NCBI GenBank assembly: GCA_000165345.1
Contig: CM000432.1
Span: 192,001-256,000, forward strand
Direction of reading: 5' to 3'
Length of the DNA stretch: 64,000 bases
Positions 52,675 to 54,697 of the stretch are shown piece by piece. How positions within the stretch are numbered: the first letter of the stretch is position 1; each line of letters opens with the position of its first letter. The notes under the pieces were generated by a model. It saw nothing but the letters and a program-made list of their open reading frames with translations, was not told the DNA's origin and ran no database searches. A program made the position numbers and the translations under genes.

Positions 52675-52954
52675 TTTTTATGATTTGGTTAGTATAGTCA
52701 AATAAATGATTCTTTTTAATTGTTGATATAATAAACCTTCAATAAGACCTTCATTAAAGTGAAACAAGTCTTTCCAACTCTTCTTGTCCTATTGACTACC
52801 CTCCAGTGTGTGTATTATTGGGTAGAATTCGTATTTTCATACAACAATTGGGTACAAGTTATTTAAAATTCAATATTAGCAGAAAATTTTCATTTAAAAT
52901 GATTTTATTCAACCTTTTTATTTATTGAAATTTCTCTATTTTCAATTTATCTTA

Positions 52955-52966
52955 TTTGGCGCCAAA
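52955..52966. promoter_or_regulatory. perfect palindromic E2F-like site TTTGGCGCCAAA, with a second TTGGCGCC at 53027-53034, upstream of ADA2
   Basis: A GC island in otherwise >80% AT intergenic DNA. TTT[GC][GC]CGC[GC]AAA is the E2F/DP consensus. It lies about 280 bp 5' of the ADA2 start. Confidence 0.45.
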
Positions 52967-53111
52967 CCCATTTTTTTTTAATTTGAAAGAAATCGTACCG
53001 ATACAGTCAAAAAATTGTCGGGGTAGTTGGCGCCATTTATGATTAAAGTTAAAAAATAAACTAAAGAAAATGAAAAAAAGATGTTTATATACAAATAAAA
53101 TAAATAAATAA

Positions 53112-53149
<38 letters not shown>

Positions 53150-53556
53150 TGATAAGAATGAACATAATGTTTTCTTAATATTCATATTTTAATGTTTTTA
53201 CAATTATGTATGGAGTGTAAGAAAAATATTGGTTTTGTTTGATCTCACATTCATACACAAATAATATTATGAGCCATATTAATAGTATTTGAATTTAGAG
53301 ATTAAATAAATAAAAAATTGAGAATGATCTAGAAAATTAAATTATATCTCAGAAAAAAAAGAGAAATTGGTTTCAACTAGTATGAAAATTATTTCTAGTT
53401 TTGTAATAGGAATTAATTATAATATATAAATGCCTTAAAGCTGTAAGATTAGCTTTAATATTTATTAGTTATATATCAGATGAAGAATATAAAAATGTTG
53501 GCGCTTTTTTACTTTTATTAAAATAAGAAATTTGATTTGATCACCAAATGAAGTTT

Positions 53557-53885
53557 TTACTGTTCTCTCTTCTTCAAACTTGCTGGTATCATTGATTCTA
53601 ACATTCTAAAGCTTATTCTAGCTTTGCTAGTATTTTCAGCTATTGCAAAATATGATATTCTAGATTGATGCATTATATTGGAAGATGCTGTATCCCTTAA
53701 GATGTTATCTCCCCACTCACTATAAAGAGTTCATACAAAGTAGTTATTGTAAGATTATTAATTCATAAGAAATTAAAATAATAATAAACTCACCTTCTTT
53801 TAGTATTAATATGTCCAGTTCCTTGATACTTACTATGCAATTGCTCTAATTGAAAATATATTGTTGATCTGTTTTCCCCATCCAT
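53557..53885 (-). CDS. SF3B5: splicing factor 3b subunit 5 (SF3B5/SF3b10), 2-exon gene missed by the ORF track
   Basis: Exon 1 is 53794-53885 (MDGENRSTIYFQLEQLHSKYQGTGHINTKR). The GTGAGT donor is at 53793-53788 and the intron is 53720-53787. Exon 2 is 53557-53719 (SEWGDNILRDTASSNIMHQSRISYFAIAENTSKARISFRMLESMIPASLKKREQ*). It aligns with human SF3B5 (RYTIHSQLEHLQSKYIGTGHADTTKWEW...LLNYFAIAENESKARVRFNLMEKMLQPCG). Confidence 0.8.
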
Positions 53886-54145
53886 TTCTCCCAAATAACA
53901 AAAAAAGAAAATATTATATTTGTTTTTAATAATTAATTTTGAATTATTTTTTTTTTTTTTAACCTATGAATTTGGAAAATAATTCTATCAGGAACTTGCT
54001 TTTTATTATAATACTATATACAATTGGACTTCTCCCTTATCTTTCTATAATCTAATATTAATAAACTACTTCCCACTCAAATTATTCTCACTACTAGATT
54101 CTTTTTTCTTTGTAATTTTCTTTTTAATCTTCATCTTGATTTTGG

Positions 54146-54219
54146 GTTTGCGCGCCAAAATTCTACGATTTTAATATTAATTAAATATTATTTGGGTACC
54201 CGTGTAATAGGCGCCAAAT
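54146..54219. promoter_or_regulatory. TTTGCGCGCCAAAA, GGGTACCCGTG and TAGGCGCCAAAT between SF3B5 and UTP13
   Basis: Three GC islands in an AT-rich divergent promoter region. Confidence 0.4.
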
Positions 54220-54361
54220 GTCAAATTTGAAATTTTATAATGTAAATAATTGGTCGAATTTTTTTTAGTTGCTAATTTAAACAATATTTAAAAAAAAAGG
54301 AAAAGCAAATAAAAAGTTCTCTTTTTGATTGGAAGTGCATTTATTATATTAAAATTATATA

Positions 54362-54411
<50 letters not shown>

Positions 54412-54569
54412 TCATTAAAGATTTGTTTTCTTACATTAATTTAAGCGACAAAATTGGAAAATATATATATTGAAATAATTTAATTTCCGGATCTAAAGAA
54501 ACACCAACATTCAACAAATACACTCATGAATAATTAAATCTTCTAAAATTTTGGCTAACACTTTTTATT

Positions 54570-54616
<47 letters not shown>

Positions 54617-54697
54617 ATTCTTTAAGAACAAAAGTAATAAAATCTATAATACTAAATAAACTCAACTCAAAAGTAATCGTTATAAAAGGTCAATAAA

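What the first reader, a model, noticed from the sequence alone, without database searches (positions are those of the whole stretch)
53557..53885. Two-exon SF3B5 (SF3b10) gene in the 2-kb gap between ADA2 and UTP13
On the minus strand, MDGENRSTIYFQLEQLHSKYQGTGHINTKR is followed by GTGAGT. After a 68-nt intron, SEWGDNILRD...YFAIAENTSKARISFRMLESM follows. This is collinear with SF3B5 and shares its conserved intron-containing architecture. It also confirms that the organism has U2 snRNP-type splicing, consistent with the introns proposed elsewhere in the window.
Basis: partly seen in the sequence, partly recalled or inferred. Interest (0 to 1): 0.5.

Follow-up and report, generated by a model that had tools for sequence, protein, structure and literature searches.

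The report
Known Cryptosporidium SF3B5 splicing-factor gene
This is a real two-exon gene for the small spliceosome protein SF3B5 in Cryptosporidium parvum, read correctly by the first stage apart from the intron length, but it is already annotated in public genomes and so is ordinary.

Summary
Confirmed, correctly interpreted and already known. On the minus strand, exon 1 (53885-53794, 92 nt) and exon 2 (53719-53557, with TAA stop) are joined across a GTGAGT...TATAG intron. The intron is 74 nt (53793-53720), not 68 nt, and lies in phase 2 inside Ser31. The 84-aa product hits Pfam SF3b10 (PF07189) at E=8e-25, 87 bits against a cut-off of 27. It aligns without gaps across the junction to human SF3B5 (PDB 5IFE_B, E=1e-16). 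It is 100% identical over its full length to an annotated C. parvum protein (CPHLJ_4g890, QOY41980.1, "Splicing factor 3B subunit 5/RDS3 complex subunit 10"). Window 49557-57885 matches C. parvum chromosome 4 record CP029783.1 with 0 of 8329 mismatches. The UTP13-SF3B5-ADA2 order and the intron position and phase are conserved in C. felis, C. ryanae and C. xiaoi. Exons are 74-76% identical to those species while the introns align poorly, and synonymous changes far outnumber non-synonymous ones. The "conserved intron architecture" claim is only partly right. The same position and phase occur in a plant and in Nematostella. Frog SF3B5 has no coding intron, amphioxus has one elsewhere, and yeast YSF3's intron directly follows the ATG. 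Interest is low.

The parts
53794..53885 (-). SF3B5 coding exon 1: ATG at 53885-53883, 92 nt, codons 1-30 plus the first two bases (AG) of Ser31
   Evidence: Start context GAGAAATGG. Exon 1 alone hits PF07189 profile positions 2-26.
53720..53793 (-). Spliceosomal GT-AG intron: 74 nt, phase 2, 5' GTGAGT, 3' CTCTTTATAG, 19% GC. If retained, the frame stops at once (AGG TGA).
   Evidence: Only this junction gives the 84-aa product. Same position and phase in C. felis (213 nt), C. ryanae (141 nt) and C. xiaoi (134 nt), all GT..AG. The intron aligns poorly between species, against 74-76% exon identity. GC.
53557..53719 (-). SF3B5 coding exon 2: 163 nt, last base of Ser31 through Gln84, plus stop TAA at 53559-53557
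   Evidence: Exon 2 alone hits PF07189 profile positions 28-72, E=3.7e-14.
53743..53746 (-). Candidate branch-point motif TAAC (in AATAACTAC), 23 nt upstream of the 3' AG. This is inferred, not shown.
   Evidence: Position. TTAAC or CTAAC lies at a similar distance in the C. ryanae and C. xiaoi introns (sequences). No experimental support.
53514..53519 (-). Candidate poly(A) signal AATAAA, 37 nt downstream of the stop codon (inferred)
54152..54158 (-). E2F-like promoter motif TTGGCGC(GC), 267 nt upstream of the SF3B5 ATG, in the divergent SF3B5/UTP13 intergenic region
   Evidence: 9 window hits against 0.25 expected. Motif family described in PMC3734150.
54211..54217 (-). Second E2F-like motif TTGGCGCC, 326 nt upstream of the SF3B5 ATG
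53498..53504 (+). E2F-like motif TTGGCGC, 53 nt beyond the SF3B5 stop codon, between SF3B5 and the same-strand ADA2 gene

Best explanation
The locus is the single-intron gene for SF3B5 (SF3b10; yeast Ysf3/Rds3 complex subunit 10) on Cryptosporidium parvum chromosome 4, between UTP13 (divergent) and ADA2 (same strand). Transcription probably starts from the 812-bp region shared with UTP13, which carries two E2F-like sites; this step is inferred. The pre-mRNA loses a 74-nt phase-2 GT-AG intron and encodes an 84-aa protein. By homology to solved human and yeast spliceosome structures, this protein should be the small helical subunit of the SF3b core of the U2 snRNP. There it packs against SF3B3 and the SF3B1 HEAT solenoid and helps hold SF3B1 in the shape that recognises the branch site. 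Gene structure, family membership, identity to the public annotation, purifying selection and intron conservation are shown here. Transcription, the promoter, the branch point and the protein's place in SF3b are inferred.
For: The splice gives one open 84-aa frame. PF07189 E=8.3e-25, 87.2 bits against cut-off 27, profile 2-72 of 78. Human SF3B5 5ife_B E=1.1e-16, gapless 5-76 vs 3-74 across the junction; Chaetomium and yeast Ysf3 also hit. 100% identity over the full length to annotated C. parvum proteins. The public annotation has the same 329-nt gene span and the same neighbours. The gene DNA is identical to two C. parvum assemblies, with 0 of 8329 mismatches to CP029783.1. Gene order and intron position and phase are conserved in three other species. 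Exon identity is 74-76% while introns align poorly, and synonymous codon differences number 29-34 against 10-12 non-synonymous. There are 29 invariant columns shared with human, including GTG, EW, RD and YFAIAEN. Intron length (74 nt) and GC (19%) fit published C. parvum means of 99 bp and 22% (PMC4637869). The IOWA-ATCC re-annotation reports all its introns RNA-seq supported (PMC8744675).
Against: No expression or junction reads could be examined here, so splicing at exactly 53794|53719 rests on homology, annotation and conservation. An older Iowa II model (XP_001388055.1, 85 aa) has an extra Ser at the junction. On this DNA that needs a non-canonical GT..TA intron of 71 nt. An in-frame alternative acceptor exists at 53696. 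Whether QOY41980.1 is the IOWA-ATCC record covered by the RNA-seq statement is from memory, not checked.
Confidence: 0.97

Rival explanations
1. The main product uses a different junction. One option is the 85-aa form of the old Iowa II model, with an extra Ser. The other is a 76-aa form using the in-frame downstream AG at 53696 (98-nt intron).
For: The 85-aa model exists in GenBank. The 98-nt intron also keeps the frame open.
Against: On this DNA the 85-aa product needs a GT..TA intron. All newer C. parvum, C. hominis, C. meleagridis, C. tyzzeri and C. ubiquitum models lack the extra Ser, and the human alignment has no gap there. The 76-aa form deletes SEWGDNIL, which includes the invariant E32, W33 and N36.
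Confidence: 0.02
2. It is a decaying or non-functional copy (pseudogene) that only looks like SF3B5.
For: None specific. The gene is tiny and lies in an unusually long (2023 bp) gap for this compact genome.
Against: The frame is intact, the splice sites are canonical and the start and stop are conserved. Synonymous changes far outnumber non-synonymous ones across species. The gene sits at the same position in four species and shows no difference between two C. parvum strains. It was the only SF3b10 protein returned for each species.
Confidence: 0.01
3. The two short ORFs are a chance resemblance and there is no gene.
For: Each ORF is short (31 and 54 codons) and the DNA is AT-rich.
Against: E=8e-25 to Pfam and E=1e-16 to human SF3B5. 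The two pieces hit adjacent, collinear parts of the same profile. Conservation across species.
Confidence: 0.003

Closest known systems
Annotated C. parvum SF3B5 (CPHLJ_4g890; QOY41980.1, WKS77283.1, WRK32048.1, KAL5368980.1; UniProt A0A7S7RFX8)
   Same: Identical 84-aa protein, identical 329-nt gene span, identical neighbours, identical DNA. It is the same gene.
   Different: Nothing. The older Iowa II entry XP_001388055.1 is labelled 'hypothetical protein' and has one extra Ser at the junction.
Human SF3B5 (SF3b10), solved in the SF3b core and spliceosome structures (PDB 5IFE chain B and 65 further entries)
   Same: 46% identity and about the same length (86 vs 84 aa). Gapless alignment over 72 residues. 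Shared GTGH, EW, RD and YFAIAEN..KAR..F motifs.
   Different: The vertebrate coding sequence has no intron, as tested on the frog Discoglossus protein (P0026), which is 51% identical to the query. The C-terminal tail differs (PCGPPADKPEEN vs ASLKKREQ).
S. cerevisiae Ysf3 / RDS3 complex subunit 10 (PDB 5GM6 chain K and others)
   Same: Same Pfam family and size (85 aa). It is also a single-intron gene in an intron-poor genome.
   Different: The sequence match is much weaker (E=1.5e-3). The intron is at a different site: directly after the ATG, phase 0, 122 nt.
Plant (Castilleja foliolosa) and cnidarian (Nematostella vectensis) SF3B5 genes
   Same: Both have an intron at exactly the homologous place and phase. 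Plant: CDS nt 92, codon 31, phase 2. Nematostella: codon 29, phase 2, which equals Cp codon 31. In both...|GTGAGT...AG|T GA(A/G) TGG is followed by the invariant Glu-Trp.
   Different: Nematostella has three further coding introns. The plant model fuses two tandem copies.

Membership tests
SF3b10 / SF3B5 (Pfam PF07189) | Score above the Pfam gathering threshold | tested here: met
   87.2 bits against a cut-off of 27, E=8.3e-25
SF3b10 / SF3B5 (Pfam PF07189) | Near full-length, collinear match in a single-domain protein of about 85 aa | tested here: met
   Residues 6-76 match profile 2-72 of 78 in an 84-aa protein. Gapless to human residues 3-74.
SF3b10 / SF3B5 (Pfam PF07189) | Conserved signature residues shared with structurally characterised members | tested here: met
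   29 invariant columns across 11 Cryptosporidium sequences plus human, including Y20, G22-T23-G24, E32-W33, R39-D40 and Y54-F-A-I-A-E-N60
SF3b10 / SF3B5 (Pfam PF07189) | Orthology: one gene at a conserved genomic position across related species | tested here: met
   UTP13-like / SF3b10 / ADA2 order in C. parvum, C. felis, C. ryanae and C. xiaoi. One SF3b10 protein returned per species. Whole genomes were not scanned for extra copies.
SF3b10 / SF3B5 (Pfam PF07189) | Physical subunit of the SF3b complex of the U2 snRNP (binds SF3B3 and SF3B1) | not testable with these tools
   Inferred from homology to chains in solved SF3b and spliceosome structures
U2-type (GT-AG) spliceosomal intron | GT at the 5' end with a GTRAGT-like donor, AG at the 3' end, frame restored on removal | tested here: met
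   GTGAGT...TATAG; removal gives the homologous ORF. GTAAGT...TTTAG in three other species.
U2-type (GT-AG) spliceosomal intron | Size and composition typical of the host genome's introns | tested here: met
   74 nt and 19% GC, against published C. parvum means of 99 bp and 22% GC (PMC4637869)
U2-type (GT-AG) spliceosomal intron | Recognisable branch point 15-40 nt upstream of the 3' splice site | tested here: inconclusive
   TAAC lies 23 nt upstream, and TTAAC or CTAAC at a similar distance in C. ryanae and C. xiaoi. There is no consensus model or experiment to score against.
U2-type (GT-AG) spliceosomal intron | Actual removal from the transcript (junction reads) | not testable with these tools
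   No RNA-seq access. PMC8744675 says introns in the IOWA-ATCC annotation are 100% RNA-seq supported, but this gene was not checked individually.

The most novel reading that the evidence does not exclude
The codon-31, phase-2 intron is an ancient intron, shared with plants and cnidarians and so possibly dating to the last eukaryotic common ancestor. On this reading it has been kept on purpose in a genome where only about 11% of genes still have introns. One possible reason: an unspliced SF3B5 message stops right at the junction (AGG TGA), which would couple the supply of a U2 snRNP subunit to the cell's splicing capacity. The shared ancient position is fairly likely (about 0.6-0.7). The functional, autoregulatory part is pure speculation. 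The immediate stop is an automatic result of any phase-2 GTRAGT intron.
Probability: 0.06. Interest if true: 0.35.

Novelty: already known. Interest (0 to 1): 0.07.

Why it matters
It matters little beyond confirming that the first-stage reader can recover a tiny split gene from raw sequence. The gene, its intron and its name are already in GenBank and UniProt for C. parvum and at least ten other Cryptosporidium species. The one mildly useful by-product concerns the single intron that Cryptosporidium kept in this gene. It sits at exactly the same codon and phase as in a flowering plant and a sea anemone, whereas yeast kept a different one. That is a small, clean data point for studies of which ancestral introns survive genome reduction.

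Tried and rejected
1. The intron is 74 nt (53720-53793).
2. I tested whether yeast YSF3 keeps the same intron. It does not: its intron follows the ATG.
3. Intron architecture is not universal. Frog and an unnamed metagenome eukaryote have no coding intron, and amphioxus has one after codon 35.
4. The old 85-aa Iowa II model could not be retrieved. On this DNA it needs a GT..TA intron, so it is treated as an outdated model.
5. Rfam at gathering thresholds and a tRNA scan of the whole window found nothing. There is no hidden RNA gene in the gap at that sensitivity.
6. Literature searches for cgd4_890 and for SF3B5 + intron + Cryptosporidium found no papers.
7. I asked whether SF3B5 and ADA2 form one of the reported C. 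parvum polycistrons. No supplementary tables are held for that preprint, so this is untested.
8. Apicomplexan SF3B5 genes outside the genus, and the gastric species C. muris and C. andersoni, never appeared in the listed hits. Their intron positions could not be examined.

Full report
**What is in the sequence.** Read on the minus strand, 53885-53794 is ATG GAT GGG ... AAA AGA AG. It is followed at 53793 by GTGAGT. The first AG more than 20 nt downstream ends the string CTCTTTATAG at 53720. The sequence then continues T GAG TGG GGA GAT AAC ... GAA CAG TAA, with the stop at 53559-53557. Two details need correcting:
- The intron is 74 nt (53793-53720), not 68 nt.
- The intron is phase 2. Two exon bases (AG) lie between the Arg30 codon and GTGAGT, and Ser31 is a split codon (AG|T).

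Without splicing the frame ends at once (AGG TGA), which is why a mechanical ORF list shows only a 34-codon and a 38-codon fragment.

**Is it more than chance?** Yes.
- The spliced product scores 87.2 bits (E=8.3e-25) on Pfam PF07189 SF3b10, whose cut-off is 27 bits, covering profile positions 2-72 of 78.
- The two exons tested separately hit adjacent parts of the same profile: positions 2-26 and 28-72.
- Against solved structures the best hit is human SF3B5 (5ife_B and 65 further entries), E=1.1e-16. Residues 5-76 align to 3-74 with no gap, so the junction restores collinearity to the residue.
- Chaetomium YSF3 (E=1e-11) and yeast Ysf3 (E=1.5e-3) follow.

**Where the window comes from, and whether the gene is known.**
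- The 84-aa protein is 100% identical over its full length to an annotated Cryptosporidium parvum protein. Its records are CPHLJ_4g890, QOY41980.1, WKS77283.1, WRK32048.1, KAL5368980.1 and UniProt A0A7S7RFX8. Sources name it 'Splicing factor subunit' or 'Splicing factor 3B subunit 5/RDS3 complex subunit 10'.
- Near-identical entries exist for C. hominis, C. meleagridis, C. tyzzeri, C. ubiquitum and chipmunk genotype I. More distant ones (75-77% identity) exist for C. felis, C. ryanae, C. xiaoi and C. bovis.
- Two C. parvum chromosome 4 records annotate a gene of exactly 329 nt, the finding's span. It lies between a 1042-aa WD40 gene and a 673-aa ADA2 gene.
- The gene DNA is identical in both records. 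Window 49557-57885 matches CP029783.1 with 0 mismatches in 8329 bases.
The 1042-aa protein carries the Utp13-specific domain PF08625 (E=1.1e-19). The 673-aa protein carries ZZ_ADA2, Myb/SANT and TADA2A-like domains.

**Evidence that the gene model is real and under selection.**
- In C. felis, C. ryanae and C. xiaoi the orthologue sits between the same two neighbours.
- It is interrupted at the same codon and phase by a GT..AG intron of 213, 141 and 134 nt.
- Exon DNA is 74-76% identical to C. parvum. The introns align poorly (30-45% of positions in forced alignments of unequal lengths).
- Across 70 aligned core codons there are 29-34 synonymous differences against 10-12 non-synonymous ones.
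- Two C. parvum strains differ at several places in the surrounding 8.3 kb, mostly in (TA)n tracts, but nowhere in the gene or its intron.
- The intron's length (74 nt) and GC content (19%; exons 32%) fit published C. parvum values: mean 99 bp, 22% GC, and introns in about 10.8% of genes (PMC4637869).
- The IOWA-ATCC re-annotation states that its introns are 100% supported by RNA-seq (PMC8744675). I could not check this gene individually, and no expression data are available to me. Transcription therefore remains inferred.

**Alternative junctions.** An older Iowa II entry (XP_001388055.1, 85 aa, 'hypothetical protein') has one extra Ser at the junction. On this DNA that product needs a 71-nt GT..TA intron, so I treat it as an outdated model. 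A downstream AG at 53696 would also keep the frame open, giving a 98-nt intron and a 76-aa product. It would, however, delete SEWGDNIL, which includes residues invariant from Cryptosporidium to human.

**The 'conserved intron-containing architecture' claim.** I mapped coding introns in SF3B5 genes from several lineages.

| Organism | Coding intron(s) |
|---|---|
| Castilleja foliolosa (plant), both tandem copies | After CDS nt 92, codon 31, phase 2 (CGA TT\|GTGAGT...CAG\|T GAA TGG); the same nucleotide position as C. parvum |
| Nematostella vectensis | Four introns; the third is in codon 29, phase 2 (AAA TT\|GTGAGT...CAG\|T GAG TGG), homologous to Cp codon 31 given the gapless two-residue offset |
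| Branchiostoma | One intron, after codon 35, phase 0 |
| Discoglossus (frog) | None |
| Unnamed metagenome eukaryote | None |
| S. cerevisiae YSF3 | One intron, directly after the ATG, phase 0, 122 nt |

The architecture is therefore not universal. Even so, the particular site used in Cryptosporidium is shared by an alveolate, a plant and an animal. The exon bases flanking it in the plant and in Nematostella (TT|T) are not the AG|G context usually invoked for independent intron insertion. This is most simply explained as an old intron that Cryptosporidium kept. Interkingdom sharing of intron positions is a well-known general phenomenon (my own knowledge), so this is a tidy detail and not a surprise.

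**How it most likely works.**
- *Shown:* a two-exon gene encoding a bona fide SF3b10-family protein under purifying selection.
- *Inferred from homology:* the protein is the small helical subunit of the SF3b core of the U2 snRNP. It packs against SF3B3 and the SF3B1 HEAT repeats and so contributes to branch-site recognition.
- *Inferred from the sequence:* transcription starts in the 812-bp region shared with the divergently oriented UTP13 gene. That region holds two E2F-like sites (TTGGCGCGC at 54158-54150 and TTGGCGCC at 54217-54210). A TAAC 23 nt upstream of the 3' AG is a plausible branch point. AATAAA at 53519-53514 is a plausible poly(A) signal.

E2F-like motifs (DTTGSCGCCH, core [C/G]GCGC[G/C]) are the most abundant upstream motif reported in C. 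parvum and dominate its open chromatin (PMC3734150; bioRxiv 10.1101/2025.01.17.633476). They are expected promoter elements here.

**Verdict.** The gene is already annotated and named in public databases, so novelty is 'already known' and interest is low. The only reading with some novelty is that the retained ancient intron has a regulatory role. Nothing here supports that beyond its conservation. The immediate stop codon on intron retention follows automatically from any phase-2 GTRAGT intron.

Noticed in passing
window 52956-52965, 53027-53033, 53498-53504, 54152-54158, 54211-54217: Six of the nine TTGGCGC hits in the 64-kb window (0.25 expected by chance) fall in this one 2-kb intergenic gap. 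Every GGCGC/GCGCC in the window lies outside the long ORFs. They match the E2F-like motif reported as the most abundant upstream element in C. parvum. Three of the sites lie between SF3B5 and the same-strand ADA2 gene.
   Followed up: partly
window 53086-53148, 54356-54407, 54574-54618: (TA)n / ATAT microsatellites flank the gene. Two C. parvum assemblies (CM109964.1 and CP029783.1) differ by small indels in all three of these tracts. The SF3B5 gene and its intron are invariant between them. The tracts could serve as strain-typing markers.
   Followed up: partly
window 53720-53793 (junction): The older C. parvum Iowa II protein XP_001388055.1 (85 aa, 'hypothetical protein') has an extra Ser at the exon junction. 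On this DNA that needs a non-canonical GT..TA intron of 71 nt, so it looks like an outdated gene model still in the databases.
   Followed up: partly
L009 301-6318 (Castilleja foliolosa JAVIJP010000023.1): The 142-aa plant 'SF3B5' model (P0012) is two truncated copies of the same 71 residues joined head to tail. The DNA holds two near-identical tandem SF3B5 copies about 3.6 kb apart. The model is probably an annotation fusion of a tandem duplicate.
   Followed up: partly
L011 301-680 (S. cerevisiae YSF3) and L006 501-3996 (Nematostella): Yeast YSF3's only intron and Nematostella's first SF3B5 intron both lie directly after the start codon (ATG|GTATGT and ATG|GTAAGT, phase 0). Yeast and Cryptosporidium may therefore each have kept a different one of the introns still present together in Nematostella.
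   Followed up: no
window 52675-54697: The ADA2-UTP13 gap is 2023 bp. With SF3B5 placed in it, the two spacers are 882 and 812 bp, still longer than the published mean C. parvum intergenic length of about 552 bp. Whether SF3B5 and ADA2 are co-transcribed, as in the polycistrons reported for C. parvum, could not be checked.
   Followed up: no
window 56070-56160 (inside UTP13, + strand): UTP13 has a low-complexity Asp/Asn run (DDDDDNNNNNNN) inside its WD40 region. Its product is 1042 aa, against 981-989 aa in C. felis, C. ryanae and C. xiaoi, which suggests species-specific insertions.
   Followed up: no
window 1-64000: There are no tRNA genes and no Rfam family hits at gathering thresholds anywhere in the 64-kb window.
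   Followed up: yes
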